From: a virus
Length of the DNA stretch: 64,000 nucleotides
Reading direction: 5' to 3' (one strand)
IMG/VR virus record: IMGVR_UViG_3300037760_000179
Location: 29,708-93,707 of that record
Positions 2,998 to 20,243 of the stretch are shown in pieces. Position 1 is the stretch's first letter; every line of letters begins with the position of its first letter. The position numbers were made by a program, and so were the translations under genes. The notes beneath the pieces were generated by a model, which was given only the letters and a program-made list of their open reading frames with translations, was not told the origin of the DNA and searched no databases.

Positions 2998-3677
2998 GCC
3001 GCCGCCCGCGACGCCTCGACCACCAGGCCGGCCAGCGGATGGTCCAGCAGCGCCATGCTCGGGATGATGCAGTGCCCGCCGATCGGGCCAGGCATGTGCC
3101 GCAGCACCGGCTGCACGAACTGGGGCAGGCCCATGGCGATGTAGCCGTCGTTGTAGCTGTGGCGGAACGCCGCGTAGACGACGCCGAAGTCCAAGCCGCG
3201 CTCAGCGCAGTAGGCGTGCACGGCCTTCTCGAACGCGATGGCCTGCGCGTAGGCCGCAAGCTCGAACAGCTTCGCAGCCTCTGTGTCGGCCGCCCGCGGG
3301 TGGGTGGCCACGTCACACCCGGCCACCTCGAACGCCTTCGCCGCCTCGTCGGCGCGCTGCCCGCCGAAGTGCTTCACGAACGTGAGCAGCGACTCGGCCA
3401 GGTCCGGGTGCCGTCCCCGCACCGGGGAATGGACCCAGCCTTCCGGGTCGCACGTGCCCACCGGCACGGTCGAGTGCACCACCACCAGCCCGGCGCCGTG
3501 CCACCGCCGGTACGCCCGCACATCGGCCGCGAACCGGTCGGACCACGGGAAGCAGATGTGCAGCACGTCAGCCTGCACGTCCACCGGGGCCACGTCGCGG
3601 GTGTGCACCGGGTGGGCGCGGGCGAGCACCGCGGCGACAGCAGTGCCCACCTCGCCCGCGCCCACCACCAGGTGCAC
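2994..3677 (-). CDS. UDP-glucose/GDP-mannose dehydrogenase family protein (short form)
   Basis: Rossmann motif VVGAGEVG, HSTVPVGT, EAAKL, catalytic-Cys motif GPIGGHCI. Confidence 0.75.
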   Translation of the reverse strand: MHLVVGAGEVGTAVAAVLARAHPVHTRDVAPVDVQADVLHICFPWSDRFAADVRAYRRWHGAGLVVVHSTVPVGTCDPEGWVHSPVRGRHPDLAESLLTFVKHFGGQRADEAAKAFEVAGCDVATHPRAADTEAAKLFELAAYAQAIAFEKAVHAYCAERGLDFGVVYAAFRHSYNDGYIAMGLPQFVQPVLRHMPGPIGGHCIIPSMALLDHPLAGLVVEASRAAA

Positions 3678-5199: not shown

Positions 5200-5248
5200 T
5201 TTCGATCACTTCCTCGGATTGGGTAGGCCCGGGTGCCCGGGCATGGGA

Positions 5249-5281
5249 AGGCCCCCACCAGGTGCGCCCCGGTGGGGGCCT
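5249..5281 (-). terminator. GC-rich hairpin between decoration gene and MCP
   Basis: AGGCCCCCACC...GGTGGGGGCCT 11-bp perfect inverted repeat, followed by a short TCCC tail on the minus strand. Confidence 0.45.
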
Positions 5282-5338
5282 CGAAGCTCGAAGGAACTAT
5301 GTGGACTGTGCGCGGGTCGCTGGACGGCCAGGGGCGGG

Positions 5339-5701
5339 CTAGAACTCCATCCACTCCGCCAGCGCGGCCGCGTCGGCGGAGGTCAGGAACACGCCCAGCA
5401 GCGGGTCCGAACCGGCGTCGTCGTCGACCGTGCCCGCCGCACCGGCGGACACGCCGGCACCTGCCACGACCGCACCAGCGGTGGTGGTGATGTGGACCTT
5501 CCCCCGGGGGAAGTACGACACCAGCGCACCGATGGCGGCGTCCTGGGCAGCCACGCCGATCACGGTCACGTCGGCAGCGTCAGGGGCCGGGCCGACGGTG
5601 CCGTTGCCGGACACGACCAGCACCTGCCCGCCGGTGATCGCGGCCGAGGCGGTACCGGTGACCGTCTCGCCGTAAAGGAACTTCGGGGCGTAGTCGGCCA
5701 T
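5339..5701 (-). CDS. Head decoration/capsid cement protein (DUF2190-like)
   Basis: 120-aa Ala/Gly-rich protein; ASAAITGGQVL..IGVAAQDAA; between scaffold and MCP. Confidence 0.75.
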   Translation of the reverse strand: MADYAPKFLYGETVTGTASAAITGGQVLVVSGNGTVGPAPDAADVTVIGVAAQDAAIGALVSYFPRGKVHITTTAGAVVAGAGVSAGAAGTVDDDAGSDPLLGVFLTSADAAALAEWMEF

Positions 5702-5703
5702 CG

Positions 5704-6201
5704 CTAGTTCTCCTCCGTGTTGGCGCCGGTCAGGGCCGGCAGCTTGCTGAAGATCCGCTCGTCCTCGTCGGCCTCGGCAGCGGCCACGTCCTGCGGCTCA
5801 CCCACCTTGCCCTTCGGCTCGACCGGAACGACCAGACCCGGCTCCAGGCTGGCCAGCACCTCGCGGGCGCCGTCCGGGTCGGCCTCCCACGCCTTGGCCC
5901 AGTGGTCCCGGCGGGCGGGGGCGATACGCCCGTCGCCGACCGCGGCCTCGATGATGCGGTCCCGGTCCTCGACCCGCTGCCGCTCGGCGGCCTGCGCGCC
6001 CAGTTCGGCCTTGGACCGCAGGTCCTCCAGGGTGGCCGCCTCGATGGTGACCACCCCCTCGGGCAGGCTGGCCGCGACATTGGCCGGCTCCGGCGGCTGC
6101 TCGGCCTTGTCCGCCAGGGCGAGCACGGCAGCATTCACCTCGTCCGGGTCCGCGTCTTCGGCCAGGCCGAGCCGCTCCAGCGCCTCATTGCTCAGAGGCA
6201 T
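5704..6201 (-). CDS. Nested in-frame scaffolding protein (internal start)
   Basis: GAGGAGG RBS upstream of the internal ATG at 6201 (MPLSNEALERLGL); IEAAVGDGRIAPA helical scaffold motif, as in the Mu I/Z arrangement. Confidence 0.7.
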   Translation of the reverse strand: MPLSNEALERLGLAEDADPDEVNAAVLALADKAEQPPEPANVAASLPEGVVTIEAATLEDLRSKAELGAQAAERQRVEDRDRIIEAAVGDGRIAPARRDHWAKAWEADPDGAREVLASLEPGLVVPVEPKGKVGEPQDVAAAEADEDERIFSKLPALTGANTEEN

Positions 6202-9200
6202 GTCATCCTCCTCGGTTGATGGGTTTCCCGGCTCGGCGGCCGGCGTCTTGGTGTGCGGGTCTGCTGCGGAAGCCTGGGTCGTCCGGTCGAAGTCGAGCGA
6301 CTCGAACTTCGCCACCGATGCCGCCAGCCGCAGCACCTCGTCGATCGGCCGGTCTACGACCAGCCCGGTGACGGTCATGTCCGGGCGTGCCCCGGATGCG
6401 CGCACCGCGGCGGCACCGGACCACCGGTGGTGCCCGTCGACCACGTACCCGTCGTTGGAAGTAACCAGCAGCCCGCCGGGTAGCCATCCGTCCTTGGCCA
6501 TGAACCCGTACAGCTTCCCGGTCTTCGCGCCGGAGATCTCCGACTGCGACGGCTTGAGCGTCGTCGGGTCGATCGTCTCCTGCCAGACTTCGACACCCTG
6601 CGCACGCAACAGGTCCAGGAACGGCCGCATCTCCTCCTCGTTGGTGCCGAGCTGCGGCATCTTGGACCGGTCGAGGGCGTCGGTCTTGTCGGTTGCGAAC
6701 AGGGTGCCGTACCCGCCGACATCCAGGCGGGCGAGGTTGGCGCGTTTGGCTTCGTCGCCGCCGCCGGTCAGCGTCTTCAGGAGCCCATCCAGCTCGGTGG
6801 CGTCAATGGATGCGCCCTCGCCGCGGGCCAGGGCGTCGTAGGCGCCGCGGATGGCCCTGTCGCCACCGCTGGCCTTGCCGCCTGGGCGCCGCTGGGCGGT
6901 CCGCCGGAGCAGCTTCCCGTCCGGGCCGTACCGGCGGCCGTGGGTCATCTGGTTGTGGCTGGCGTGCGCCTCCACATCCGGCCGGGACTCGGCGGCCGAC
7001 GCGTACACCATCCGGGACGCGGCCACCCGCTCCGCGTCGTCACCCTGTTCCACGTATTCGACCCGCACCGGCACCGGCGGGCTGAACCGGATCGCGCCGT
7101 CGTCGTCGACGTCGAAGTCGACCCGCGCCACGGTGCCGTCGCCGTCGTTGGCGACGATCAGCCGCCTCGGCTGGGTATGGAACTCGCGAATCCACGCCCG
7201 GTCCGGCGCCTGCGCGTAGTAGGCGGTGCGCACATCATCGACCGACACCGCCGCGGCGGCGTGCACCATCGTCGGGTTCGGGTTCGGCAAGGTCATCTCC
7301 CCCTCGGAGGCGTCCACAGTCCGCCCGTCGTCGTCTTCGTCGTCCGGGTCCGGGTCAACGGCCGGGATGCCGGTGGCGGGCCTGTCGAAGCTGACGGTGG
7401 CAAACCAGCCGGCCAGGAGCTGCTTCTCTTCGGCCCGGCCGACCGCAGCGTCCTCGCCTGCAACGGCGGCAGCGGCGACCCACGCCGGGTCACGCACCCA
7501 GCCGGCAAACACCGTCGGATTGATATAGCTCGATAGAGCCAGGGTGGGGGTGTTGCCAAGCGCGGCAGAGACCTTCTCGGCCACCTCGCGGCGGCGCTGC
7601 TGAAACTCCCGCTTCGTCTTCGGCACGCTCCGCCGCTTCGCCACCTCCCGCAACGCGACCATGTTGGCGTGCACCGTGCGGAGATCCTTGAGCAGGAACC
7701 CCGCTGGCACACCGGTGGAGTGCATGTAGTCGCGGGTGTGGGCCTCGGTGGTGTCGAGCAGCCGGTCGTCACCTGTCCGGGTGGACAACCGCCGCGACAA
7801 CGCGGAGACGATCACCGGGTCGGCGGTCTCCAGCTGGATGTGGACACCCTTCTTGCCGATGAAGTCGAACCGGGCGGTGCCGCCCTCGACGGTGACGTGC
7901 CGGGCCAGCAGCGTGGTCGCCCCGTACGCCTGCTGCGACGCGCCGGTGTCGCGGGTCGACCCCGGCCGCATCCCGAGCCGTCGGATCAGCAGCAACGCCG
8001 CAGCGTCGTCGTTCGTCGCCGCGTCGCGTTCCACCGCATGGTCCAGCTTGTCCAGGTGCTCGTTCAGCTCCCGCACCCGCTGAAACTTGGCCGCCGCCTG
8101 CCCCTGCGTGTGCGCGGTCGAGTAGATCGCCTGCCGGCGGCCCTTGCCGTCGCGGCCGGTCACCAGCAGCGGCGCGTTGTCGAGGTCGTCGGCGAGGTGA
8201 ACGTCGGTCCACGCCGGGGGGATGGACTTGCCGAACCGCTCCCGGAAGCTGCCGATCTCATCCGGTGTGGCCGGGTGCATCAGATCGACCCACCGGCCGT
8301 CGCGGGGGTCACGCGGCTGGTCCGGGTCGAACGCGGCTACGTCACCCGCCGCGGACACCTTGCCCACGTTGCGCCGGTCACCGGGATAGACGCCTGTAAA
8401 CTGCTTGTGGTAGACGCTGCACAGACCCTTCGGGTCCCGGACATACTTCCGGAGCTGCCGTACGCACCGCGTCCAGTCCCCGGGAGTGTTCCACCGGATC
8501 TTCAGGCCGCCTTTGCCGGCGGGGCTCCAGTACCGCCGCAGCGGCGCGTCGGAGCGGGTGATCCGGCGGGACTGCTGCGCCTGCACCTCGACGGCCGGGG
8601 CTGGCATATCGTCGTCGGTCAGACCATCCACGTCCAGGTCCGAGCCCTCACCGGAAAGCGGGGTGTCGACGTTCTCGCCAGCGAACGCGACCCTGATCCG
8701 GTCCATCCTGACCGGCCCGGCCCGGTCGGCGAGGTGGGCCACGTTCATCAGGTCGTCGGAGTAGACCAGCGTCAGGTGCGGCCGGTAGGGGGCGTGCTGT
8801 TCCGGCAGGGCCAGCCCGTGCTGCCTGGCGGCCTCGGCAACAGCGGCCTCGGTCATGCCTTGCACGTCTTCGAGCCCGTCGCCGCCCAGCTCCAGCACGA
8901 TCGCCGTGTCCTTGTCGGCCCGGTGCGGGTTGAACGCGGCCAGAGCCATGCCGTCGACCTCGCCCGGTGGGATCACCTCGGCCAGGTCCCGGACGGCCTC
9001 GACGATCGCCTGCCGCGCGTCGGGCGGGTAGGCGTCGGCGTCACCGAGGAACAGCAGCGTCACGTGCAACTGGTCCTGGTCTTCGCCGCCGTCGGTGGCC
9101 AGCCGTTCGGCGTCGGCGGGTGACGGGAGCAGGGCAACCATCGCCCCCGACTTCACGTCGGACGCGGCAGCAACCTGCACCAGCGGGGGTGCCCCGCTGC

Positions 9201-11052
9201 CCGACCCGGCCGCCACCGTGACGCCCCGGGAGGTCGACCGGCGGACGGAGGAGAAGTAGAACAGGTCGGCAGCCTCGGCGACCTCCTCGACGTTGTCGAA
9301 GGCGCGGGGCAGAGGATGGTTCAGCGTGTTCGGCCACGACATTGACCAGCCGCCAACCTCGGCGCGCATCGTCAAGGCCGAGGGCGGTCCACCAGGCTCG
9401 CCGGGTGGGCCGTCGCGGGACACGACCACCGCACCGCCGGGCAGGTCCACCCGCAACGCGGTCAGGTCCGCCTCCGGGTCGGCAGTCTGGCCGAACTCGT
9501 CGAAACCCTCGTCGACGATGTTGATCGCGTAGCCGATGCGCTGCCAGTCGGCGAAGCTGTACCGCAGGTCCACCTGCCCGCCGTCGGGGGTGGGGGCACG
9601 CAGCCCCACCTGGTTGCCGTCGAGGAACACGTCCACCGGTCCGGAGGCGGTGTCGGCGCGGCCAGCGGCCGACAGCAGCACCACCGTGTCGGCGAGCTGC
9701 CGGGCCTCGCCCCGGGTCAGCCGGTGGGTGGTGTCGTCGGCGAGCAGCTCCAGCTGCCAGCCGTCGCCGTCGGGGGTGATCTGCGCGAACCCGGTCGGCG
9801 GGCTGGTGCCGGGGGTGTAGGTGGCGGCGGACACCGTGCCGTCGATTTCTTGCGGTCGCAGGTTCAGCAGCCGGCTCAGCTTCCCCGTCGCCTCCGCGTC
9901 CAGCGCCCCGGACGAGTTGGACCCGTAGGACAGGTGAACACCGTCTGGGCGGGCGTCCACGGTCAACGCCCCGGCGGCGGTTTCCAGGACGGTCGACAGG
10001 ATGCTGCCAGCCGGTCCGTCGGTCCACCGGCCGTCGCGGGGGTCACGCGGCTGGTCCGGGTCGAACGCGGCTACCGCCGTACCGGCCAGGGCGGCGAACA
10101 CCGGGCCGAGTACCTCGTCCACCACCCGCTGCAACGCGTCCCGCACCGGCTCCACGTCGTCCGGGTCCAGCTGGATCTCGGCCTGCTCCTCGTCACCTTC
10201 CCAGCCGATGGTGACCAGCCCGTTGCCGTACAACGCCAGCTCGACTTCGCTCCTCAGGCCCACCGAGTAGATCAGGGTGTTGGATGCGGCGTTGTCGGGG
10301 ATGTCCACGTCGAGCAGGTCGTCCAGCCCGTCGACCAGCTCCTGCGTCTCGTCGGTGGTGAGGGTGGTTCCGACGGTTCCGGCGGCGCCGAAGGTCAGGT
10401 CCACGTCGCCGACGTCGTCGGCGCGCAGGTGCAGGTCTCCGGAGGACGTTTCCAAGGTGACGCGTGGCAGGCCGGGACCGCCGCGGCCGCGGTTGCCGTG
10501 GGTCTGCTGGTTGTGCCCGCCGCGCAGGTGCGCCACCACGGCGGTGCCGGCGTCAGCCTGGACCCCGTACAGGGCACCCACATCCTGCAACGACTTGAGG
10601 GTGCCCACCCCGGGTGGGGTCACGCCGAGCAGCGCCACCGCGGTCAGCACGAACGGGTGGGTGTGGCCGATCTGGCAGCGGTGGTCGTAGGAGCCCTCCA
10701 CGGACCGGTCCGGGTAGGCCGATGCGGCGATGTCACCCAACCAGCCGGGCATGCCCACGAAGTCGCCGACGAGGGTGTGGCCCTGGTTCGTCAGGGCCAG
10801 GTTGTCAACCCAGCCGACGGCGGGGACACCGGTCGGGTTGCCGGCCCACAGCGGCGTCTCACCGCGGGAGTGGCCCAGCTTCAGCACCGGCCGGCGGACG
10901 GCAGGGCACTTCAGCGCGGCGGCTGCGGCTACCAGGTCGTCACGGGAGGCGGTCCACTGCCCGGTGCTGATCTTCCACTGGCCGGTGTGGACCAGCTCGA
11001 CCCGGTTCAGCCGGGCCAGCGGCGGGGCGGTGGGCACGGCGATCTCGACCAC
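5704..11052 (-). CDS. Prohead protease/scaffold polyprotein carrying 2H phosphoesterase, topoisomerase IB, ParB-like and unknown domains
   Basis: N-term Mu-I-like protease (LKLGH, PAVGWV, YPDRSVE, LTAVALLG); HVTL and HLTL 2H motifs; TopIB motifs IPPAW/GMRPG/GKKG/KDLRT/LGNT..SY; DGHHRW; C-term scaffold. Confidence 0.88.
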   Translation of the reverse strand: MVEIAVPTAPPLARLNRVELVHTGQWKISTGQWTASRDDLVAAAAALKCPAVRRPVLKLGHSRGETPLWAGNPTGVPAVGWVDNLALTNQGHTLVGDFVGMPGWLGDIAASAYPDRSVEGSYDHRCQIGHTHPFVLTAVALLGVTPPGVGTLKSLQDVGALYGVQADAGTAVVAHLRGGHNQQTHGNRGRGGPGLPRVTLETSSGDLHLRADDVGDVDLTFGAAGTVGTTLTTDETQELVDGLDDLLDVDIPDNAASNTLIYSVGLRSEVELALYGNGLVTIGWEGDEEQAEIQLDPDDVEPVRDALQRVVDEVLGPVFAALAGTAVAAFDPDQPRDPRDGRWTDGPAGSILSTVLETAAGALTVDARPDGVHLSYGSNSSGALDAEATGKLSRLLNLRPQEIDGTVSAATYTPGTSPPTGFAQITPDGDGWQLELLADDTTHRLTRGEARQLADTVVLLSAAGRADTASGPVDVFLDGNQVGLRAPTPDGGQVDLRYSFADWQRIGYAINIVDEGFDEFGQTADPEADLTALRVDLPGGAVVVSRDGPPGEPGGPPSALTMRAEVGGWSMSWPNTLNHPLPRAFDNVEEVAEAADLFYFSSVRRSTSRGVTVAAGSGSGAPPLVQVAAASDVKSGAMVALLPSPADAERLATDGGEDQDQLHVTLLFLGDADAYPPDARQAIVEAVRDLAEVIPPGEVDGMALAAFNPHRADKDTAIVLELGGDGLEDVQGMTEAAVAEAARQHGLALPEQHAPYRPHLTLVYSDDLMNVAHLADRAGPVRMDRIRVAFAGENVDTPLSGEGSDLDVDGLTDDDMPAPAVEVQAQQSRRITRSDAPLRRYWSPAGKGGLKIRWNTPGDWTRCVRQLRKYVRDPKGLCSVYHKQFTGVYPGDRRNVGKVSAAGDVAAFDPDQPRDPRDGRWVDLMHPATPDEIGSFRERFGKSIPPAWTDVHLADDLDNAPLLVTGRDGKGRRQAIYSTAHTQGQAAAKFQRVRELNEHLDKLDHAVERDAATNDDAAALLLIRRLGMRPGSTRDTGASQQAYGATTLLARHVTVEGGTARFDFIGKKGVHIQLETADPVIVSALSRRLSTRTGDDRLLDTTEAHTRDYMHSTGVPAGFLLKDLRTVHANMVALREVAKRRSVPKTKREFQQRRREVAEKVSAALGNTPTLALSSYINPTVFAGWVRDPAWVAAAAVAGEDAAVGRAEEKQLLAGWFATVSFDRPATGIPAVDPDPDDEDDDGRTVDASEGEMTLPNPNPTMVHAAAAVSVDDVRTAYYAQAPDRAWIREFHTQPRRLIVANDGDGTVARVDFDVDDDGAIRFSPPVPVRVEYVEQGDDAERVAASRMVYASAAESRPDVEAHASHNQMTHGRRYGPDGKLLRRTAQRRPGGKASGGDRAIRGAYDALARGEGASIDATELDGLLKTLTGGGDEAKRANLARLDVGGYGTLFATDKTDALDRSKMPQLGTNEEEMRPFLDLLRAQGVEVWQETIDPTTLKPSQSEISGAKTGKLYGFMAKDGWLPGGLLVTSNDGYVVDGHHRWSGAAAVRASGARPDMTVTGLVVDRPIDEVLRLAASVAKFESLDFDRTTQASAADPHTKTPAAEPGNPSTEEDDMPLSNEALERLGLAEDADPDEVNAAVLALADKAEQPPEPANVAASLPEGVVTIEAATLEDLRSKAELGAQAAERQRVEDRDRIIEAAVGDGRIAPARRDHWAKAWEADPDGAREVLASLEPGLVVPVEPKGKVGEPQDVAAAEADEDERIFSKLPALTGANTEEN
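8290..8340. repeat. 51-bp direct repeat copy 1 (encodes VAAFDPDQPRDPRDGRW)
   Basis: Identical to 10024-10074. Confidence 0.95.
10024..10074. repeat. 51-bp direct repeat copy 2
   Basis: Identical to 8290-8340; spacing 1734 bp keeps the frame. Confidence 0.95.
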
Positions 11053-11124
11053 AAGGCACCTCCAGGGGGGAGAGCGTGCCCGTAGGCGAAACCTACTGTG
11101 GGACGAAACGCAGCGGGCCGACCG

Positions 11125-11301
11125 TCAGCGGGCCGACTCCAGCGGCTCCCGATCCTCCGGGTCGTCCACCACAACCTTCTTCCACCCGACCTCAGGACCG
11201 AACCAGGTCAGTCCCGGCTCCGGCGGCGGCCCCGGAGGGGGCGAGGAGAGGTCAACCTTCTTGGCGTTCGGGTCCCTGCGGAACTCTCGGTTGGTGGCCA
11301 T
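11125..11301 (-). CDS. Small hypothetical protein (58 aa)
   Basis: Strong GAAAGAGGAGG RBS before the ATG at 11301. Confidence 0.65.
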   Translation of the reverse strand: MATNREFRRDPNAKKVDLSSPPPGPPPEPGLTWFGPEVGWKKVVVDDPEDREPLESAR

Positions 11302-11323
11302 CTGACCTCCTCTTTCATCTCCC

Positions 11324-11329
11324 ATTGTA
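11324..11329 (-). promoter_or_regulatory. Putative sigma-70 -10 element (TACAAT) for the small gene
   Basis: TACAAT ~22 nt upstream of the ATG in otherwise GC-rich DNA. Confidence 0.45.
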
Positions 11330-11354
11330 CCCCTGGGAGCGGGTCGGCGCAGGC

Positions 11355-14300: not shown

Positions 14301-17300
14301 CTCGTCCATGAACAGGTAGTCGATGCCGGTGCTCTCGAACGTCAGCCCCGGGTCCCGGTCGGTGCTGCCGACCTGGTCCTTGATGCGCTGCTCGGCCTTC
14401 TCGACCTGCCCCTCAAGCTCCTTGACGGTCGGGTCGTTGTCCAGCGCCTCCCCTACCAGCTTCCGAAGCGCCTCGTCGCTGGCGCCTTCGTTGTCGGCGC
14501 GGACCCTCTCCACCACCTGGGCGCGGCGCCTGGCGGCCGACCGCCGCAGCGGCTCAACCTCCCCCGCCAGGTAGTCCCGCTCGGTCTCGCTGGACACCGG
14601 AATCCGCTTGAACGCGCCCTGGGTGAGGATCACCGCGTCCCAGTCGCCGGTGGCTGCCTTGGCGACGATCTCGCGCCGCTTCTCGCCGCCCTTGTCGCCC
14701 TTCAGGTCGTCGGACCCGATCGCGAGCACACGCGCCTGCGGGTAGCGCTCCAGGAACTCGCTGGTCATCTGCTCCAGCATGTGGTTGGGCACGACGATGG
14801 CGGGCTTGCGCACCAGACCCAACCGGCGCATCTCCATCGCACCGATGACCATGGTGGTGGTCTTGCCGGACCCGACCTCGTGCCACAGGCCAACCGAGGG
14901 CTCGGCGATGATCCGCCGGACAGCCGCGCTGCGGTGCGGGAAGGCGTAGAAGCCGTCCCGGTTCAACCCTGGCAACTCCAGGTCCGAACCGTCGTACGAA
15001 CGCAGCACCAACGAGTTGAACCGGCGGTTGTACGTGTCCTGAAGGTCCCTCTGCCGGGTGGGGTCTTCCCACAGCCACTCGGCGAAGCGGTCTGCCATCT
15101 CCTGGGCCTTCGCCTGCGCCTGCTCGGTCTTGTCCCGGTTGAGCTTGCCGTCCTCGGTGACCCGGATCGGCTTCTGCCCCAGGATGTCCTCGGCGATGTC
15201 GACGCCGGACATCTCCCGGATGCCCCACTCGGTGGTCGCGGCGGTGCTCCGCTTGCGGTCCGACCTGACCTTCCAGGCGTTCGCGTGCGGACGCTCAACG
15301 GTCAGCGTCGGGTCCCGCAGGATCTCCCGCAGGAACTGCTGCACGTACGCCGGTTCGATCCACCCGGCGCCCATCTTGGCGTTGATGTCAACCGGGGTCA
15401 GGTCCGGCGGCAGGACCCGCTCCAACGCCTCCACGTTCGGCGCGAACGCGTCCGGGTCCTCGGCCGCAGCCAGGCGGGCCACGTCGAGCTTCTGCCGCAC
15501 GTTGCCTGACAGGTACTCGGCCGCCGGTGCGAGCCGGCCGCTACCTGGCTCGTCGAAGACCAACGTACCGAGACGGTCCCGGGCGGTCGGCTCGTCGACG
15601 TCGAGCAGGTCAGCGATGTGGGCCAGGTCGACCTCGCCGAGCTGGTCCACGGTGATCGCCAGCGCGTCTGCGGCGCTTTCCGCGCTGGTCCTGGGGGTGC
15701 GGGGGGCGATCGTGCGACGGTGGAAGATGTCGGTCTTGGTGGCGTTGCCCGTGAGCGGGTCGTAGTTCTCCAGGGCGCGCACCGCGGCCGAGAACGGGTC
15801 GCTGCGGAATCCGCCCTGCGGTGGGCGGGTGCGGGTGACCCGCTGCTCCTCAACGTCGTCCTCGTCCTCGCCGCCCTTCGGGGCGCGCCGCTTCTCCGTG
15901 AAGCGGCTGACCGGCCCCCACTTGGCGACGTAGCCGTCGTAGATCTCGTTGAGGTCTTCGCGGAGCCGCTTCATCTGCTCGGTGTCGTCGCCGCTGGAAG
16001 CCTCGGCGTTGACCAGGTCGATGCTGGTGTCGCGCAGCCGCAACAGCTCCCGCAGCTCCTCCCGCTGTGTCGCGGGAACCTCGTGCGGCTGCTCCACCCC
16101 GCGGGTGACACGGCTGAAGGTGCCGTCCGGGAGGGCACGCAGGAACCCCTCGGGCACACGGTCCGGCCCGGTTTCGGCGAACGCGGGACGCGGGCGCTGC
16201 CCGGGGGTCTGGGTCAGCCCCATCGCCTGAGCCCGTGAGACGACCTTGTCCAGCGCCTCCCTCAGCGCCGGCCCAGCGTCCGCGTCGCCGCGAACACCGA
16301 AGGCATCCTTTGGTCCGCTGCCCATGACCATCGTCCCGAGCACCATGTCGGGGTTGTCGAGGAAGTGCCCGTTGACCGACACTTCCCGGTCGTCGTCGCC
16401 GATGGTGATCTTCCGGGCAGCCTGGAACGGCAGCCCGGCATACGGCGTGTCGGGCTCGCGGCGGCGGAACACCAGCAGGTCGGTCACCACCGCCGTGCCG
16501 GCCGCCTTCTCGTGCGCCCGCGACGGCAGCCGCACCGCCCCGACGAGGTCAGCCAGTTCGGCCATTTCCTCCCGCGCGGCCGGGCTCATCGAGTCCATCG
16601 TGTACCGGGAGGTGATGAACGCCCCGATCCCGCCCGGGCGGGTCATCCGCAGCGACTTGAGGATGAAGTGGTTGTGCATGTTGTGACGGCGGCCCGGGTT
16701 GTACTCCGGGTCAACCAGCTTGGTGTCGGAGAACGGCACGTTGCCGATGGCGGCATCGAAGGCACCGTCGCGCGTCTTGGTGTCAGTGAACGACTCTGCC
16801 CGCACGTCCGCGTTCGGGTACAGGGCGGCCGCGATCGAGGCGGTGATCGGGTCCAGTTCCACCCCGGTCACGTGGGTGTCGGGTGCGACGTCCTCCGGCA
16901 CCATCCCCATGAACGTGCCCGACCCGCTGCCCGGCTCCAGCACCTCGCCGCCGTGGAAACCGAGGCCTCGCACGGCGTCCCAAATCGCGGCGACGTAGTC
17001 CGCGTCGGTGTAGTGCCCGGTGCGGGTCGTTCGCCGCGCCGCCGCGAACTCCTCCGGCGTGAGCAGGTCCTTCAGCTCGGCCTGCGCGTCGGCGAACCTG
17101 CCACGCGGGGGTGGCTCCTTGAACACGTTGGGCAGCGAACCCCACCCGGACCAGCGGGCCAGTTTCGCCTGGTCCTCAGCCGACGCCGGCCGGCCGGATT
17201 CTTGCAGGTCCCGCAGGGTCCGCAGCGCCACAAGGTTGGCGTCCAGCCGCTTGGTCGCCGTGTTCGGCGCGAGGTCGGCCTGACTGCGCGGGCGGAAAAC

Positions 17301-20243
17301 CTGGGTGGCGTCTACTCGCCAGTCTCGCCCTCCGGCGCCTCGTCGTCCTCCGCCCGGGGCAGCATCTCCGCCAGCACTTCCCGCTCCGCGGTCGGCCGGG
17401 CCGCCATCATCCGTTCCCACCGCTCCTGGAACGGCCGGTCCGCCGGGATCGTCTCCTCCAGCGCCTCCGCCCGGTCGAGTACCCGGGTCTCGATCTGTTC
17501 CCCCAGGTTCTGGAAGAACGTCTCCCGGCTGCTCATCTGGGCGTACTCCGCCGGCCGGTACTTCTGCCAGTGCGCCATCGCCATCCGGCCGTACTGATTC
17601 ATCCGAACCCGGCCCCCCTCTGTCGACCTCTGGCAGGACGGATCGTAGCAGCGCCTGGCCGATCTCCTCCCGCGTCGCCGATTTCGACACCTCGACTCCA
17701 CGGCGGACGGCGGTGCGGCGCAGCTGGTCCCCGCTGAACCCTTCCAGCGGGTCACCGGCCTGGTTACCGGCCTTCCAGGTCTCGATGCGGGCGGCCAACC
17801 GCTCGCGGAACTGGCCACCCTTGCCGCCTAGGGTGCCTTTAGGCCAGCGTGGATGGTGGTCAGCATTCCATGCCGCCTCGACGTCGCCATCGCCGTCGAG
17901 TTCGCCAGCCACGCGGGCCAGCGCCCACAGCAAGTCCTCGATGTCATCGTCGGCTGCGCCGTCCGCACTGTCAGCCCGGCGGCGGCGGCTGATCCGCGCC
18001 CGCAACTGGCCTCGGCAGCGGCTGCGCCCCTCGCACTGCCAGTACCGGCCCACCGGGTAGTCAGCCAGCGCCCCGGCCAGCGTCTCGTACACGGTGCCGT
18101 CGATCTCGCGGCACGGACCGCACGTGTTGGTGTCGTTGCGCTCGTCCGCCACCCACACCACCGGCACGCCCAGCGCCTGTAGCCCGCGGAACACCGCCGC
18201 ACGGCCCAGATGCACCGCAGCGTGCACAGCAGCTGCAAGCTCCCCGGCGACAAACCCCCGCGCCGCGCCGCGCTGCTGGGTGGTGGCGGTGGAAGTCAGA
18301 TCCTCGGCCGCCCGGGTGACCGCGGCGGCGGCGTCGTCGGGGTCGGCGTCGGGGCCGGCTGCCAACACGGCCCGGGCAGCGGCGGACGTGTAGCCGCCGA
18401 CGATCAGGTGGGCGGTGGCGTCGGCCAGCTGGTCCAGCCGTGCCGTGTCCACGTCGGGTAGGCCCGGGTCGGCCCCCTGTGCGGCGACCGCGGACCGGGC
18501 GGTGCGGGCCGACGTGGCGGCCACGTCACGTAGCTGCGCCCGCAGCCCACCGGCCACCGCCCCGACCAGGCTGGGGCCGACCGTCAGTGTCGCCAGGGTG
18601 GCGACGGTTCCGGCGGAGGCGGCTTCGGCTGCGGCCTGGGCCAGCGGCGGCACGATGGGCGCGGCCAGCAGCGGCCAGGCGGCCAGCAACGCCAGCAGCG
18701 CGGCGGACGAGTCTTCCTCGACCTGCCGCATCTCGTCCTCGGCCTGCTGCTGCTCGTCCTGTTCGGTCTGGGCGGCGACGAACAGGTCCGGCTGCTCGTA
18801 CCGCACCGGGCCGGGCGGTGCGGCAGCCTGCACCGGGCCGGATGGCGCCGGCTTGGGCTCAGGCCCGGGCGGGGTCGGCCCGGGTGCGGGACTGCCTCCG
18901 GCCGGCGGGTCCTGGCCGGGCACCTGCACCGGCCGACTGCGGTCCGGCGCCGGCAGCCGGTACTCTTTGCGGACCCACTCCTCCAGCCCCGGATCGGCTG
19001 ACAGGGCACCGGAGGCCAGCAGCAGCTGCAACGACTCGGCGGTCACCTCACGGCGTGAGGCGATCCCCGACGCCCACACCTTCGGCACCGGCTCGTCTTC
19101 GTCGTCCCAGTTCCACGCGACCAGCCGGGCGGCGACCTGCCGGGTCACCACGTCGGCGATCTCCTCAGCGATGGACTCCAGGGCCAGCGTCCAAGCGTCG
19201 ATGAACGCGACGCCCAGCGCCCTGTTGCCGGTGGCGGTCTGCCCGAGGTCGAGGTGGCCCATCAGCGCCATGGTGGACATCTGCTGGTCCAGCCACTTCA
19301 CGAAGCCCATCGTGTCCGGGGTGCCACCGGACAGGCCCACCAGCTCCAGCCACGCACCGGGTGGCATCGCCGCGCCGGCGGTGTCCCCGGCCCGGGCGGC
19401 AGAGGCCATCTGCTGCGCCTGGGTCATCTGCGCCGGGGTCGGTGACATCGACTCCGGCCAGCGGACCACCGGCACACCCATGCCGAACCGGCGGGAGGAG
19501 GTGGCGAGGACCCGCATCATCTCCCGCTTGAACAGCCACGGCGCGAACGCCGGCCTAAGCAGCGAGGTGCCGAACCAGGACGCGCCCTCACGTTCGTGGC
19601 AGTACCACGCCAGCCGGTCCGCGCCGATCTCCGGCTTGTCGAACGGCCCGGCTGCCATCTCCTGGGAGATGCCGGCGAACGTGCCCCGCCGGGGCTCCAC
19701 GTGGATCTGGGTGATGGTGTGCTGCGGCCGGTCCCACAGGCCGACCAGGTGCGCCCGCCCGTCGCCGCCGATCTTGGCCTCAAGCTCGAACCCGGCATGC
19801 CCGAACGGGAGCATCGTCAACGCCGAGCGGAGGTGGTCGTGCCACGACAGGCCGTGGGCCGTTCCCACACCCGGGTTGTCGCGGCCGATCACCGGCAGGT
19901 CCAGGTCGTGGGCCACCAGGTCGACCACCTCGCGGCGGCAGCCGGTGGCGTCGATCTGCCAGGTGGCACGCAGCAGCATGTGGCAGTAGCCGGCCAGCAC
20001 CGCCGCCAGCTTCGCATCCCGCCGCATCGCGTTGTAGGTGGTCACGGACTGGGGCCACGCCACGTCCGGTACGGTCTCCAGGGCGTCGACCAGCAGCCCC
20101 TCGTACGCCGAGTCCTCGACGTACCCGCGCAGCGACGTGGGCGGCTTGAACACCTTGGCGCCGTTGGCGTGGGCGGCCATGATGTCCGCCGGGTGCGCCA
20201 TCACCGTGGCGCCGTTGACCGGTCCGTCTGGCAGCGGGTCCAC
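11355..20243 (-). CDS. Portal (DUF935-like) - MuF-like - DarB-like N6-adenine MTase/SNF2 helicase fusion, 2962 aa
   Basis: Portal N-term (GTSLLRPAF.PW, RRFGMGVP); MuF Cys motifs (NDTNTCGPCREIDG, CEGRSRCRG); MTase EPGSGSG and GNVPF; helicase HEVGSGKT, DEAH, TATP, QRDGRIVRQGN; no internal stop. Confidence 0.9.
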   Translation of the reverse strand: MDPLPDGPVNGATVMAHPADIMAAHANGAKVFKPPTSLRGYVEDSAYEGLLVDALETVPDVAWPQSVTTYNAMRRDAKLAAVLAGYCHMLLRATWQIDATGCRREVVDLVAHDLDLPVIGRDNPGVGTAHGLSWHDHLRSALTMLPFGHAGFELEAKIGGDGRAHLVGLWDRPQHTITQIHVEPRRGTFAGISQEMAAGPFDKPEIGADRLAWYCHEREGASWFGTSLLRPAFAPWLFKREMMRVLATSSRRFGMGVPVVRWPESMSPTPAQMTQAQQMASAARAGDTAGAAMPPGAWLELVGLSGGTPDTMGFVKWLDQQMSTMALMGHLDLGQTATGNRALGVAFIDAWTLALESIAEEIADVVTRQVAARLVAWNWDDEDEPVPKVWASGIASRREVTAESLQLLLASGALSADPGLEEWVRKEYRLPAPDRSRPVQVPGQDPPAGGSPAPGPTPPGPEPKPAPSGPVQAAAPPGPVRYEQPDLFVAAQTEQDEQQQAEDEMRQVEEDSSAALLALLAAWPLLAAPIVPPLAQAAAEAASAGTVATLATLTVGPSLVGAVAGGLRAQLRDVAATSARTARSAVAAQGADPGLPDVDTARLDQLADATAHLIVGGYTSAAARAVLAAGPDADPDDAAAAVTRAAEDLTSTATTQQRGAARGFVAGELAAAVHAAVHLGRAAVFRGLQALGVPVVWVADERNDTNTCGPCREIDGTVYETLAGALADYPVGRYWQCEGRSRCRGQLRARISRRRRADSADGAADDDIEDLLWALARVAGELDGDGDVEAAWNADHHPRWPKGTLGGKGGQFRERLAARIETWKAGNQAGDPLEGFSGDQLRRTAVRRGVEVSKSATREEIGQALLRSVLPEVDRGGPGSDESVRPDGDGALAEVPAGGVRPDEQPGDVLPEPGGTDRDPGTRPGGGAGGDDPGGPAVPGAVGTDDGGPADRGAGSAGGDAAPGGGRRGAGGRDWRVDATQVFRPRSQADLAPNTATKRLDANLVALRTLRDLQESGRPASAEDQAKLARWSGWGSLPNVFKEPPPRGRFADAQAELKDLLTPEEFAAARRTTRTGHYTDADYVAAIWDAVRGLGFHGGEVLEPGSGSGTFMGMVPEDVAPDTHVTGVELDPITASIAAALYPNADVRAESFTDTKTRDGAFDAAIGNVPFSDTKLVDPEYNPGRRHNMHNHFILKSLRMTRPGGIGAFITSRYTMDSMSPAAREEMAELADLVGAVRLPSRAHEKAAGTAVVTDLLVFRRREPDTPYAGLPFQAARKITIGDDDREVSVNGHFLDNPDMVLGTMVMGSGPKDAFGVRGDADAGPALREALDKVVSRAQAMGLTQTPGQRPRPAFAETGPDRVPEGFLRALPDGTFSRVTRGVEQPHEVPATQREELRELLRLRDTSIDLVNAEASSGDDTEQMKRLREDLNEIYDGYVAKWGPVSRFTEKRRAPKGGEDEDDVEEQRVTRTRPPQGGFRSDPFSAAVRALENYDPLTGNATKTDIFHRRTIAPRTPRTSAESAADALAITVDQLGEVDLAHIADLLDVDEPTARDRLGTLVFDEPGSGRLAPAAEYLSGNVRQKLDVARLAAAEDPDAFAPNVEALERVLPPDLTPVDINAKMGAGWIEPAYVQQFLREILRDPTLTVERPHANAWKVRSDRKRSTAATTEWGIREMSGVDIAEDILGQKPIRVTEDGKLNRDKTEQAQAKAQEMADRFAEWLWEDPTRQRDLQDTYNRRFNSLVLRSYDGSDLELPGLNRDGFYAFPHRSAAVRRIIAEPSVGLWHEVGSGKTTTMVIGAMEMRRLGLVRKPAIVVPNHMLEQMTSEFLERYPQARVLAIGSDDLKGDKGGEKRREIVAKAATGDWDAVILTQGAFKRIPVSSETERDYLAGEVEPLRRSAARRRAQVVERVRADNEGASDEALRKLVGEALDNDPTVKELEGQVEKAEQRIKDQVGSTDRDPGLTFESTGIDYLFMDEAHTYKNLRTPSGIQGLGIPGSQIATDLHMKLHHLRSRNDRVATLATATPIANSVSEAYTMMRYLRPDLLEDMGVETFDEWAANFGEMTTRLEVAPTGGLRQHSRFAKFVNLPEFLRPWLVASDVKTADDLKDIVKTPDLVERVDADGNRTRAPETVVVPPSQELLDFMEQLVARAKTIPYPPEKGGDNMLKITGEGRAAALDLQMVGRDTAEPTKLDVAAGKIAAIYEKNKDAVYTDRAGNPVGVPGALQLVFSDIGTPGGKRKKTSGSDQDEAGSGLADFVAYEALRDKLVERGVPRNRVRFIHEANTDQEKAELFAAARDGRVAVLVGSTAKMGVGTNVQDRAVALHHVDAPWRPVDVQQRDGRIVRQGNKNPEVEVIRYVTEQSFDAYIWQAITTKSTFINQVMRGRLDVREVDDVGEFALTAQEVTALGTGNRWLIEHADASADLTRLQRARRNHEADQRNIAKRITDGEADVARSEQAIAQINEALPKRVDGKRFKISLGGTDYRDRTEAQQQLRKQIRTARDAPTVIGEFRGFPLRAGRTETGFSVELVGVPGSVSVRRGDLNSTDVIGDLQNALGRMERTLTRHVARTREARQDIEALRARVGRPFRDQDALEQAQERFMRVDRNLKQELARRGETPEPTDPAEKAAARKAAELADIKTRLDSGEGFQGLGELTAWLEADEALADRIPDDAGAKWGLLSPSGQLLVMKGRSGYDIVVPRVMRNAPVLSGFRTQKEARAFAEAVEGAGIPWNTGIDLAEWRRADGAGVGEVVGMLRAQTPGLDRSGTWNMLAVKAKVDRSVPERLREPLLQGQYRGDGLGAMSLVGLDPQHRDEIIEMLRAGSDPDRDLATAARLREYGLTEARDNGYEARRFALSAARRLENDYRQRVPQPLDGVRSRFQRDFDRIRYSVDLPRIEQILAEGDATGDFAAASAKLRAIVDEVRDKQRNPYGSREAADVASSLADVLDAFASRGT
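17312..17602 (-). CDS. Nested out-of-frame gene, TnpV-like helical protein (96 aa)
   Basis: GAGGGGG RBS, ATG at 17602, high GC3 codon usage. MNQYGRMAMAHWQKYRPAEY...FFQNLGEQI...AEREVLAEML resembles TnpV-like proteins. Confidence 0.75.
   Translation of the reverse strand: MNQYGRMAMAHWQKYRPAEYAQMSSRETFFQNLGEQIETRVLDRAEALEETIPADRPFQERWERMMAARPTAEREVLAEMLPRAEDDEAPEGETGE

What the first reader, a model, noticed from the sequence alone, without database searches (positions are those of the whole stretch)
5704..20243. Candidate protease-processed virion cargo-delivery system built into portal and prohead protease
Seen: in both giant head ORFs most non-structural domains start with a V-x-A-[AH] motif followed by one of two leader peptides. 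The leaders are AVAA-FDPDQPRDPRDGRW, DVAA-FDPDQPRDPRDGRW, DVEAA-WNADHHPRWPKGTLGGKGGQF, VVAH-LRGGHNQQTHG and DVEAH-ASHNQMTHG. Further VAA/VQA motifs bound the portal, the 2H domain and the scaffold. Known: prohead proteases cleave head proteins during maturation, and MuF/polyvalent proteins carry ejected effectors. Inference: the phage loads cargo by fusing it to portal and protease/scaffold, frees it at V-x-A sites, and the newly exposed leader acts as a retention or ejection signal. That would be a modular cassette format for anti-defence and DNA-processing enzymes delivered with the genome.
Basis: partly seen in the sequence, partly recalled or inferred. Interest (0 to 1): 0.92.

Follow-up and report, generated by a model that had tools for sequence, protein, structure and literature searches.

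The report
Tagged, protease-cut cargo on phage head proteins
An uncultured actinobacterial phage hangs about 3,500 residues of enzymes on its portal and its head protease-scaffold protein, and each enzyme module starts with a short, very widespread peptide tag that I could not find described, preceded by a probable cut site of the phage's own herpesvirus-like protease; no cut or packaging has been measured.

Summary
The two giant minus-strand ORFs are a portal + MuF-like + DarB-like fusion (2962 aa) and a protease-scaffold gene (1782 aa). The second carries about 1,300 aa of cargo at two linker sites: two unknown modules, 2H, a small Cys domain, topoisomerase IB and a DdrB-like ParB.

All five leaders are present. 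They belong to three tag families that are widespread in IMG/VR at every G+C content: F-D-P-x-Q-P-R…G-x-W, W-x4-H-P-R…G-x-F and H-x(2-4)-H-N-Q-x-T-H-G. The tags sit after portals and before varied effectors. No Pfam family covers them and no paper was found.

The His of "V-x-A-H" belongs to the tag, so the motif is V-x-A. V-x-A is also conserved at linker positions in relatives of the protease and the portal, and it resembles the herpesvirus assemblin sites.

Relatives carry different cargo between the same joints. The ParB module also occurs as a solo gene with an N-terminal tag of another family. Across phages, the residue just before a tag is phage-specific.

Caveats:
- The two FDP copies are a 56-nt DNA repeat, so they are not independent.
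- V-x-A alone is not enriched in the portal protein.
- Cleavage and tag function are inferred.

This scan reported the HPR-type tag on other genomes. The word look-ups that I ran in its notes returned no H-N-Q tag and no V-x-A rule.

The parts
11355..20243 (-). Giant ORF 1 (P0001, 2962 aa): portal + MuF-like + tag + DarB-like fusion
18954..20039 (-). Mu-type portal domain (aa 69-430)
   Evidence: Pfam Portal_Mu E=1.4e-43
18762..18833 (-). Linker after the portal, with V-Q-A (aa 471-473) and V-A-A (aa 489-491): candidate cut sites
   Evidence: my reading of the printed portal tails finds V-x-A in the equivalent linker of about 10 of 15 relatives
18003..18164 (-). MuF-like core (aa 694-747)
   Evidence: tblastn to MuF-like minor capsid proteins of Arthrobacter phages, E down to 5e-9; no Pfam hit
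17808..17885 (-). V-E-A-A followed by an HPR-type tag that has a long insert before its final G-x-F (aa 787-812)
   Evidence: best-scoring site in the window under the HPR-tag matrix, but far below the training set
12321..17387 (-). DarB-like module: N6-adenine methyltransferase plus SNF2-type helicase (aa 953-2641)
   Evidence: phrog_10089 E=0, bits 1310; weak Pfam Eco57I, SNF2 and Helicase_C hits
11358..12320 (-). C-terminal 320 aa with no family match
5704..11052 (-). Giant ORF 2 (P0002, 1782 aa): protease, then cargo, middle domain, cargo and scaffold
10555..11031 (-). Prohead protease domain (aa 8-166); invariant H61, S117 and H132
   Evidence: phrog_3894 E=5e-97; invariant residues in 15 sequences; AF2 model pLDDT 79; top folds are herpesvirus assemblins and T4 gp21, E 0.02-0.1
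10552..10569 (-). Y-G-V-Q-A-D at the end of the protease domain: release-site analogue
   Evidence: V-x-A starts at this aligned place in 11 of 17 relatives; herpes R-site Y-L-Q-A then T (PMC4498786)
10489..10539 (-). V-V-A followed by H-N-Q tag copy 1 (aa 172-188)
   Evidence: matrix score 34.9 against -2.9 for the next best site outside the two tags
10078..10485 (-). Cargo module U1 (aa 190-325), unknown
   Evidence: no match in phage records or in the protein collection; only a sub-threshold Pfam hit (WapI, E=0.003, 18 bits against a cut-off of 27)
10024..10074 (-). V-A-A followed by FDP tag copy 1 (aa 327-343); lies inside the 56-nt repeat
9178..10020 (-). Cargo module U2 (aa 345-625), unknown function but a recurrent phage cargo module
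   Evidence: 42 homologues in 1.84 billion representatives; 20 of 22 fetched carry a tag directly upstream
8653..9180 (-). V-A-A (aa 627-629), then 2H phosphoesterase (aa 636-800)
   Evidence: Pfam 2_5_RNA_ligase2 1.5e-8; the same domain lies in actinophage protease/MuF fusion proteins
8359..8592 (-). V-Q-A (aa 823-825), then a small Cys-containing domain (aa 832-898)
   Evidence: phrog_6439 E=6e-25; recurs next to proteases or MuF in actinophages
8290..8361 (-). V-S-A, then V-A-A, then FDP tag copy 2 (aa 898-921); second arm of the 56-nt repeat
7483..8223 (-). Topoisomerase IB module (aa 944-1190)
   Evidence: Pfam Topoisom_I 2.4e-15; by my reading of the printed sequence, a topoisomerase-IB-like stretch behind an FDP-type tag also occurs in polyvalent protein P0045 (not checked by a search)
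6979..7269 (-). V-H-A, then the conserved middle domain of the protease family (aa 1262-1358)
   Evidence: BLAST block against phage Mbo4; V-x-A before it in 12 of 17 relatives
6931..6978 (-). V-E-A followed by H-N-Q tag copy 2 (aa 1359-1374)
   Evidence: matrix score 33.5; the same joint is present in P0006, P0007 and P0009
6295..6840 (-). DdrB-like ParB nuclease module (aa 1405-1586)
   Evidence: phrog_2859 2e-21; tblastn to DarB-like giants of Gram-negative phages; the assignment to the DdrB-like ParB clade is by analogy with PMC5512222, no ParB profile matched; solo tagged homologue P0010
5707..6215 (-). Scaffold part (aa 1618-1782) with an internal ATG at 6201-6199 behind a GAGGAGG ribosome-binding site; V-A-A sites at aa 1659-1661 and 1756-1758
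   Evidence: Pfam Mu-like_Pro positions 110-289; DNA; Met present at this place in many relatives
20674..23223 (-). Large terminase (context)
4258..5701 (-). Small scaffold-like protein (5339-5701) and major capsid protein (4258-5199) (context)
   Evidence: phrog_673 and phrog_1650

Best explanation
This is the head-assembly module of an uncultured high-G+C actinophage (a viral record; a contig of about 94 kb is on record). Two structural genes have become cargo carriers.

The Mu-type portal is extended by a MuF-like domain and a 2,170-aa DarB-like methyltransferase-helicase. The prohead protease-scaffold gene has an N-terminal Ser/His protease, a middle domain and a C-terminal scaffold with its own internal start. 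It has taken up cargo at two linkers. The first linker holds two unknown modules, a 2H phosphoesterase, a small Cys domain and a topoisomerase IB. The second holds a DdrB-like ParB nuclease.

Inferred mechanism:
1. The fusions bring the cargo into the procapsid as part of the portal ring and the scaffold/protease core.
2. The phage's assemblin-like protease then cuts after Ala in V-x-A at each joint.
3. Each freed module starts with one of three widespread tags of 14-20 residues, usually followed in other phages by a Gly-rich linker.
4. The modules stay in the head and enter the host with the DNA. There they would counter restriction (DarB-like), nucleotide signalling or RNA damage (2H), and act on DNA (topoisomerase IB, ParB).

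What is shown and what is inferred:
- Shown here: the domain architecture, the tags and their wide occurrence before variable cargo, the position of V-x-A, and the cargo differences between relatives.
- Inferred: cleavage, packaging and injection.
- Unknown: what the tags do. My best guess is a signal that works at or near a free N-terminus inside the capsid or during ejection.
For: Architecture. Pfam and PHROG hits. P0002 aligns to the 493-aa protease of Rhodococcus phage Mbo4 in three colinear blocks (aa 1-178, 1255-1358 and 1626-1770), so the cargo is inserted. All 14 IMG/VR relatives have short, tag-free proteases.

Protease.
- H61, S117 and H132 are invariant in 15 sequences.
- The model's best structural matches are herpesvirus assemblins and T4 gp21.
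- Herpes release and maturation sites read Y-L-Q-A then T, and V-Q-A then S (PMC4498786).

Cut site.
- V-x-A directly precedes all five tags.
- A V-x-A starts at the same aligned place after the protease domain in 11 of 17 relatives, before the middle domain in 12 of 17, and before the scaffold core in 9 of 17.
- By my count on the printed tails it lies in the post-portal linker of about 10 of 15 relatives.
- Relatives P0006, P0007 and P0009 keep V-[AE]-A before their H-N-Q-type tags.

Tags (IMG/VR pattern scans).
- HPR: 94 matches in 80 loci, 81 of them in ORFs of 200 aa or more.
- FDP: 133 matches in 119 loci, 124 in long ORFs.
- H-N-Q: 78 matches in 63 loci, 60 in long ORFs.
- A mis-spaced control pattern gave only chance-like hits in short ORFs.
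- The tags lie after Portal_Mu, Phage_portal_2 and Phage_portal_3. They lie before ART, Zeta toxin and kinase-like domains, and in polyvalent proteins that also carry 2H, Acb1 or InPase.

Phage-specific residue before the tag. It is identical within a locus against between loci in 0.81 vs 0.15 of pairs (HPR), 0.75 vs 0.14 (FDP) and 1.00 vs 0.57 (H-N-Q).

Modularity.
- P0006 (78% identical protease domain) has other cargo at the same joints.
- P0010 is the ParB module as a 257-aa solo protein with an N-terminal HPR-type tag.
- U2 homologues carry a tag whether solo or, by my reading of the printed sequences, beside ClpP-like or HK97-like protease stretches or behind MuF.

Stoichiometry. An internal ATG with a strong ribosome-binding site at the start of the scaffold would let the scaffold be made without cargo.
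Against: - There are no proteomic or N-terminal data, and the phage is uncultured.
- V-x-A is a common tripeptide in this Ala- and Val-rich proteome and is not enriched in P0001.
- The two FDP joints are one duplicated 56-nt segment. The five joints are therefore at most four independent events, and three if the two H-N-Q joints also share an origin.
- The structural match to assemblins is weak (E 0.02-0.1, TM about 0.35).
- The major capsid protein has no V-x-A near its N-terminus, so the usual capsid substrate gives no support.
- The HPR-type leader of P0001 is atypical. It has Ala for the usual Glu and a long insert, and it scores far below the training tags.
- Some large head-packaged proteins stay uncut (N4 virion RNA polymerase, per PMC5512222). 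The DarB-like giants of Bcep22 and a Pseudomonas phage carry no tags.
- The cargo load on a protease-scaffold chain could be too large if it is made in scaffold-like numbers.
Confidence: 0.6

Rival explanations
1. The polyproteins are packaged but never cut at the tags. The tags are inter-module joints that bind a common partner such as DNA, the capsid wall or the portal. V-x-A is only part of an Ala/Val-rich linker of this lineage.
For: V-x-A is not enriched overall in P0001. The FDP joints are a DNA duplicate. Uncut giant virion proteins are known (N4 virion RNA polymerase, PMC5512222). Tag-free DarB-like giants exist.
Against: The residue just before a tag is conserved within a phage but varies between phages, which fits a site read by a phage-specific enzyme. 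V-x-A is kept at aligned linker positions in relatives that have no cargo. Tags also occur near natural N-termini of solo proteins, about twice as often as chance.
Confidence: 0.18
2. The tags are docking elements on the C-terminal (primed) side of the cut site. They recruit prohead proteases of the shared herpesvirus/HK97 fold to the neighbouring cut site and have no role afterwards.
For: The tags always lie directly after the putative cut residue. They occur in phages whose head proteases differ in sequence; by my reading of the printed proteins these include ClpP-like and HK97-like types.
Against: The conserved self-cutting sites of this protease family have no tag. Some tags start right after Met-Ala-Gly of small proteins, where no release is needed. 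By my reading some carriers have ClpP-like proteases, which have a different fold.
Confidence: 0.12
3. The tags matter mainly at the DNA level, as short conserved stretches that let cargo cassettes recombine in and out of head genes.
For: The strongest direct repeat in the 14.5-kb region is the 56-nt stretch that encodes V-A-A plus the FDP tag, and it flanks unrelated modules. Relatives differ by whole modules at the joints.
Against: The peptides are conserved across G+C 0.32-0.75, which means different codons. Selection therefore acts on the peptide. Recombination is more likely a by-product.
Confidence: 0.05

Closest known systems
Phage-type polyvalent proteins and portal- or MuF-fused effectors (Iyer, Burroughs, Anand, de Souza, Aravind 2017, PMC5512222)
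   Same: Many effector domains in one chain (DarB-type methylase-helicase, 2H, DdrB-like ParB), encoded among the head genes and fused to portal or MuF. They are predicted to be packaged and injected. That paper also notes assemblin-like peptidases in some polyvalent proteins.
   Different: That paper places the assemblin-like peptidase at the C-terminus and proposes a zincin-like peptidase for processing. Here the protease is N-terminal, the cargo lies between protease and scaffold, no zincin-like domain was found, and every module carries a short tag plus V-x-A. My term searches of that paper returned no passage on such tags or motifs; 'linker' occurs nowhere in it.
Herpesvirus assemblin precursor UL26 with nested UL26.5 (PMC4498786)
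   Same: An N-terminal Ser-His-His protease and a C-terminal scaffold. A probable in-frame internal scaffold start. A release site right after the protease (Y-L-Q-A then T, against Y-G-V-Q-A then D here). A maturation site near the C-terminus (V-Q-A then S, against D-V-A-A then A here). P3 is Val or Leu, and P1 is Ala.
   Different: This is a bacteriophage, and sequence similarity is undetectable. The fold match is weak. About 1,300 aa of enzymes are inserted between protease and scaffold.
Phage T4 prohead core: gp21 protease, internal proteins IPI-III and Alt with the capsid targeting sequence (PMC3012670, PMC9026906)
   Same: Proteins are loaded into the prohead, trimmed by the prohead protease at a three-residue motif, and injected with the DNA to counter host defence.
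   Different: In T4 the targeting peptide is N-terminal and is removed at (L/I)-x-E (from my own knowledge of the T4 literature). Here loading is by covalent fusion, and the conserved peptide lies after the cut, so it would be kept.
Phage P1 Dar system, DarB (PMC9024508, PMC12810830)
   Same: A DarB-like methyltransferase-helicase carried in the head to protect incoming DNA from restriction.
   Different: By my recollection of the P1 literature, DarB is a separate protein whose loading depends on other Dar proteins such as DarA and Hdf (I did not read these two papers). Here the homologous module is part of the portal chain.
Actinophage 'capsid maturation protease and MuF-like fusion proteins' (for example Streptomyces phage Abt2graduatex2 and Microbacterium phage Fizzles)
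   Same: 2H and the small Cys domain are fused to MuF and a head protease in cultured actinophages.
   Different: Those proteins have another protease type at the C-terminus. They lack the three tags, and their joints show other recurrent motifs.

Membership tests
Prohead serine protease of the herpesvirus assemblin / HK97 / T4 gp21 fold | Characteristic fold | tested here: inconclusive
   AF2 model with pLDDT 79. The top Foldseek hits are assemblins and T4 gp21, but E is 0.02-0.1 and TM about 0.35.
Prohead serine protease of the herpesvirus assemblin / HK97 / T4 gp21 fold | Catalytic His, Ser and His in that order | tested here: met
   H61, S117 and H132 are invariant in 15 homologues.
Prohead serine protease of the herpesvirus assemblin / HK97 / T4 gp21 fold | Gene lies between portal and capsid genes, is fused to a scaffold part, and has an internal scaffold start | tested here: met
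   Gene order. Mu-like_Pro scaffold part. Internal ATG with a ribosome-binding site.
Prohead serine protease of the herpesvirus assemblin / HK97 / T4 gp21 fold | Cuts head proteins at a defined motif | not testable with these tools
   Only positional conservation of V-x-A is available.
Phage-type polyvalent proteins (Iyer et al. 2017) | Two or more effector domains in one chain, in a head-gene context | tested here: met
Phage-type polyvalent proteins (Iyer et al. 2017) | Zincin-like metallopeptidase domain proposed for processing (common, not obligatory) | tested here: not met
   No such Pfam or PHROG hit in either protein.
Mu-type portal | Match to Portal_Mu above Pfam's cut-off | tested here: met
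   150 bits against a cut-off of 23.9.
MuF / SPP1 gp7 head protein | Match to a MuF profile | tested here: inconclusive
   No Pfam hit. Only a 54-aa tblastn match to annotated MuF-like proteins.
DarB-like antirestriction proteins | Methyltransferase plus SNF2-type helicase architecture homologous to DarB | tested here: met
   phrog_10089 E=0 over aa 953-2641. Function not tested.
FDP tag (F-D-P-x-Q-P-R-[DA]-x-x-G-x-W) | All conserved residues in register | tested here: met
   Both copies have every conserved residue, with one extra residue before the Gly. Copy 1 continues with T-D-G as in the consensus.
H-N-Q tag (H-x(2-4)-H-N-Q-x-T-H-G-x-R) | Motif plus flanking preferences | tested here: met
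   Scores of 34.9 and 33.5 against -2.9 for the next site among 103,303 positions; the lowest training score is 38.
HPR tag (W-x-E-x-x-H-P-R-x3-G-x-F) | Motif in register | tested here: inconclusive
   W and H-P-R are in register. Glu is replaced by Ala, and a long insert precedes the final G-x-F. It is the top site in the window but scores -1.1 against a training minimum of 30.7. Variants without Glu or with inserts exist elsewhere.
T4 capsid targeting sequence | N-terminal peptide removed by the protease | tested here: not met
   The tags lie after the putative cut and would be kept.

The most novel reading that the evidence does not exclude
The three tags, and probably further ones seen in passing, are interchangeable address labels that do not depend on the carrier. 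They mark proteins that travel inside tailed-phage capsids. The prohead protease exposes them at a free N-terminus, and they then govern retention during DNA packaging, exit through the portal and tail, or the lifetime of the enzyme in the host. The last idea rests on the fact that two of the tags would leave Phe, Trp or Tyr at the new N-terminus, which are the residues read by the bacterial N-end rule. If this is true, the injected proteome of uncultured phages could be read from sequence, and any protein could be loaded into a capsid by adding a cut site and a tag.
Probability: 0.3. Interest if true: 0.9.

Novelty: new variant of a known kind. Interest (0 to 1): 0.7.

Why it matters
Phages are known to inject enzymes along with their DNA. 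How those enzymes are chosen, loaded and released is understood for only a few model phages. This locus shows one compact grammar: carrier, then a phage-specific cut site, then a universal tag, then the module.

The tags occur in hundreds of uncultured phages of all G+C contents. They occur on portals of three Pfam families, in large multi-enzyme (polyvalent) proteins, on some protease-carrying proteins and on solo proteins.

If the grammar is confirmed, it would let annotators predict capsid cargo and protease specificity from sequence. It would give a first context to orphan modules such as U1 and U2. It would also offer a simple design rule for loading foreign proteins into phage capsids in laboratory strains.

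The herpesvirus-like layout adds a clear example to the phage-herpesvirus kinship of head assembly. That layout comprises the protease, a release site, a probable nested scaffold start and a maturation site, with Val at P3 and Ala at P1.

Tried and rejected
- Exact FDP leader as a degenerate DNA pattern in IMG/VR, and as tblastn against cultured phages: no match. The exact peptide is private to this phage; the family was only found with the canonical spacing.
- My first loosened pattern had one residue too many between Asp and Gly. It returned only chance-like hits in short ORFs. I kept it as a negative control.
- The search for homologous proteins on aa 160-420 at near-query lengths found only the query itself.
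- tblastn of U1/U2 and of the topoisomerase module against cultured phages: no match.
- A small HMM of the tags run with hmmsearch gave no usable ranking for such short motifs. I replaced it with a gapless matrix scan.
- The DarB-like giants of Bcep22 and Pseudomonas phage F1Pa have no tags, so the tags are not a general feature of polyvalent proteins.
- Actinophage protease/MuF fusion proteins (Abt2graduatex2, Ailee, Fizzles) share the 2H domain, and two of them (Abt2graduatex2, Fizzles) also the Cys domain, but none has the tags.
- Pfam at E up to 1 gave nothing convincing for U1, U2, the MuF-like region, the stretch after the HPR tag or the C-terminus of P0001.
- Literature strings for the motifs: no paper found. 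Jamet et al. 2017 does not mention linkers or cleavage.
Neither ran.
- I considered that the giant ORFs might be spurious long frames of high-G+C DNA. I rejected this because family hits tile both ORFs.
Full report
**What is there.** The window is high-G+C DNA (about 0.71) from a viral record, and a contig of about 94 kb is on record for the protein. On the minus strand lie, in order:
- large terminase (20674-23223);
- a 2962-aa ORF (11355-20243, P0001);
- a 1782-aa ORF (5704-11052, P0002);
- a 120-aa scaffold-like protein (5339-5701);
- the major capsid protein (4258-5199).

P0001 contains:
- a Mu-type portal (aa 69-430, Pfam 1.4e-43);
- a MuF-like core (aa 694-747), seen only as a 54-aa tblastn match;
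- a DarB-like methyltransferase-helicase (aa 953-2641, phrog_10089 E=0).

P0002 contains, in order:
- a head-maturation protease domain (aa 8-177, phrog_3894);
- two modules without family (U1, U2);
- a 2H phosphoesterase;
- a small Cys-containing domain (phrog_6439);
- topoisomerase IB;
- a conserved middle domain;
- a DdrB-like ParB module;
- the scaffold part of Mu-like_Pro.

**The cargo is inserted.** In cultured Gordonia, Rhodococcus and Mycobacterium phages, tblastn of P0002 matches only its two ends. The 493-aa protease of Rhodococcus phage Mbo4 aligns in three colinear blocks, to P0002 aa 1-178, 1255-1358 and 1626-1770. Fourteen IMG/VR relatives of the protease domain (35-65% identical over the matched part) all have short genes without tags. 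P0002 is therefore an ordinary protease, middle-domain and scaffold gene that took up about 1,080 aa at a first linker and about 250 aa at a second.

**The protease.**
- H61, S117 and H132 are invariant in 15 homologues.
- An AlphaFold model built on that alignment (pLDDT 79) finds herpesvirus assemblins and T4 gp21 as its best PDB matches. The scores are weak, E 0.02-0.1.
- The layout matches herpesvirus UL26/UL26.5 as described in PMC4498786: an N-terminal protease, a release site right after it, a C-terminal scaffold, a nested in-frame scaffold start and a maturation site near the C-terminus. The published sites are Y-L-Q-A then T, and V-Q-A then S.
- Here the protease domain ends with Y-G-V-Q-A-D. 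An ATG at 6201-6199 follows a GAGGAGG ribosome-binding site, at a place where many relatives also have Met. D-V-A-A-A lies about 25 residues from the C-terminus.

**The leaders are real and are not private inventions.** All five leaders are present, and in six frames of the window they occur only in these two ORFs. Degenerate DNA patterns run on IMG/VR showed that each belongs to a widespread family:
- W-x-E-x-x-H-P-R-x3-G-x-F gave 94 matches in 80 loci, 81 of them in ORFs of 200 aa or more.
- H-N-Q-x-T-H-G with an upstream His gave 78 matches in 63 loci, 60 in long ORFs.

G+C of these loci runs from 0.32 to 0.75, so the peptide is what is conserved. Positions left free in the patterns are also conserved, and a Gly-rich stretch usually follows. 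A pattern that I mis-spaced by one residue returned only short-ORF, Arg-rich, off-frame hits, which shows what chance looks like.

The tag families co-occur in single phages (L021, L025 and L027 have H-N-Q plus FDP; L022 and L024 have H-N-Q plus an HPR form). Hybrids such as F-D-P-N-L-H-P-R exist (P0022), so FDP and HPR are probably one superfamily.

In context the tags lie after Portal_Mu, Phage_portal_2 and Phage_portal_3. They lie before ADP-ribosyltransferases, Zeta toxin and PI3/4-kinase-like domains, and in proteins that also carry Acb1, 2H or InPase. No Pfam family matched the tags.

Membership of this phage's own copies:
- Both H-N-Q copies score 33-35 bits, against -3 for the next site in the window.
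- The FDP copies have every conserved residue, with one extra residue.
- The HPR-type leader of P0001 is only the best site in the window and is atypical.

**The cut site.** Bare V-x-A is not enriched in P0001 and only mildly in P0002. Three things make it more than composition:
1. It directly precedes all five tags. It also lies 1-7 residues before the independently defined starts of 2H, the Cys domain and the middle domain.
2. It is conserved at aligned linker positions in relatives that carry no cargo. A V-x-A starts at the same place after the protease domain in 11 of 17, before the middle domain in 12 of 17, and before the scaffold core in 9 of 17. By my count on the printed tails it also lies in the linker after the portal core in about 10 of 15 relatives.
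3. Across all tagged phages, the residue immediately before a tag is the same within a locus far more often than between loci: 0.81 against 0.15 for HPR, 0.75 against 0.14 for FDP, and 1.00 against 0.57 for H-N-Q. This is what a phage-specific protease pocket next to a universal tag would give. In this phage that residue is always Ala, whereas most H-N-Q tags elsewhere have Lys.

**Modularity.** A search with the ParB module found these proteins:
- P0006 (938 aa, from a 104-kb contig) has a protease domain 78% identical to ours. It keeps the joints (V-A-A before an H-D-Q variant tag, V-E-A before the Cys domain, V-H-A before the middle domain, V-E-A before an H-N-Q tag and ParB). It has a different first module and lacks U2, 2H and topoisomerase.
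- P0009 has an extra module after ParB, behind V-S-A.
- P0010 is the same ParB module (about 72% identical) as a 257-aa solo protein, with an HPR-type tag starting at residue 14.
- More distant ParB homologues sit behind MuF, in Zeta-toxin or oxidoreductase fusions, and carry any of the tags.

A full HMMER search with tag plus U2 found 42 proteins. Of the 22 I fetched, 20 have a tag directly before the matched region. By my reading of the printed sequences they include solo proteins of about 320 aa, proteins with a ClpP-like or HK97-like protease stretch after the module, one with MuF before it, and a 2542-aa polyvalent protein. Several of the weaker hits match mainly through the tag itself. 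Among the 14 with long alignments, 12 carry a clear tag and one a degenerate one. So tag plus module behaves as the mobile unit.

**Caveats.**
- The two FDP joints lie in the strongest direct repeat of the region (56 nt, 96% identical, with a 51-nt exact core), so they are one event. The repeat also suggests that tags serve as recombination points.
- Nothing here shows cleavage, packaging or injection.
- The capsid protein has no V-x-A near its N-terminus.
- The fold match is weak.
- Tag-free giant virion proteins exist.

**How it probably works.** Portal and scaffold/protease fusions carry the cargo into the procapsid. The protease then cuts after Ala of V-x-A. The predicted products are:
- from P0001: the portal, a MuF-like piece and a 2,170-aa tagged DarB-like enzyme;
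- from P0002: the protease, up to six cargo pieces, the middle domain and the scaffold.

The internal start would supply cargo-free scaffold in bulk. The tag's own role is open. Tags are enriched about two-fold near ORF starts, and some follow Met-Ala-Gly directly. This fits a signal that acts at or near a free N-terminus.

**Relation to what is known.**
- Polyvalent effectors on portal or MuF and protease-processed internal proteins are published (PMC5512222; T4 and P1 literature).
- I found no description of the tags.
- Earlier follow-ups in this scan reported the HPR-type tag with other cut residues on other genomes. I tested that lead independently here.
- The word look-ups that I ran in the scan's notes returned no H-N-Q tag, no V-x-A rule and no cargo placed between the protease and the scaffold of this gene type.

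Noticed in passing
window 20674-23223 (-): The large terminase is 849 aa and carries a LAGLIDADG homing-endonuclease domain (aa 265-326; Pfam LAGLIDADG_3 1e-6, Hom_end 1e-4) between its ATPase and nuclease parts. This is probably an intein.
   Followed up: partly
window 1445-3677 (-): Directly downstream of the capsid gene, on the same strand, lie three genes: a glycosyltransferase/LicD-like gene (1861-2997), a cytidylyltransferase-like gene (1445-2167), and a gene with only sub-threshold Pfam hits to UDP-sugar dehydrogenase (2994-3677). They may serve virion glycosylation.
   Followed up: no
window 6199-6215 (-): An internal ATG lies behind a GAGGAGG ribosome-binding site at the start of the scaffold part of P0002, and many relatives also have Met there. 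This looks like a nested scaffold gene, as in Mu I/Z, lambda C/Nu3 and herpes UL26.5.
   Followed up: partly
window 8285-8340 and 10019-10074: A 56-nt direct repeat (96% identical) encodes V-A-A plus the FDP tag and flanks unrelated modules. It may be a footprint of cassette exchange by recombination at tags.
   Followed up: partly
proteins P0013 and P0020: Two further recurrent joint peptides lie before modules in distant ParB-carrying proteins: G-D-F-P-G-H-P-F-R-G-N-Q-H (three copies) and G-S-G-N-F-G-H-x-G-R-P-G-L-V-G-G-S (two copies). They may be additional tag families.
   Followed up: no
window 8359-8559 (-); also L025, P0006, P0029, P0067: A domain of about 65 aa with conserved Cys and His (phrog_6439, no Pfam family) recurs next to head proteases, MuF and 2H domains in many actinophages. 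Its function is unknown.
   Followed up: no
loci L105, L075, L225, L240, L249 (IMG/VR): Some phages carry three to five tags of one family in a single protein or in consecutive small genes, each with its own conserved residues before the tag (for example D-A-E before W, or K before H).
   Followed up: partly
H-N-Q tags in 62 IMG/VR instances: Val lies three residues before the tag's first His in 28 of 62 H-N-Q tags, and Lys lies directly before it in 46. V-x-K before H therefore seems the common form, of which V-x-A before H in this phage is a variant.
   Followed up: no
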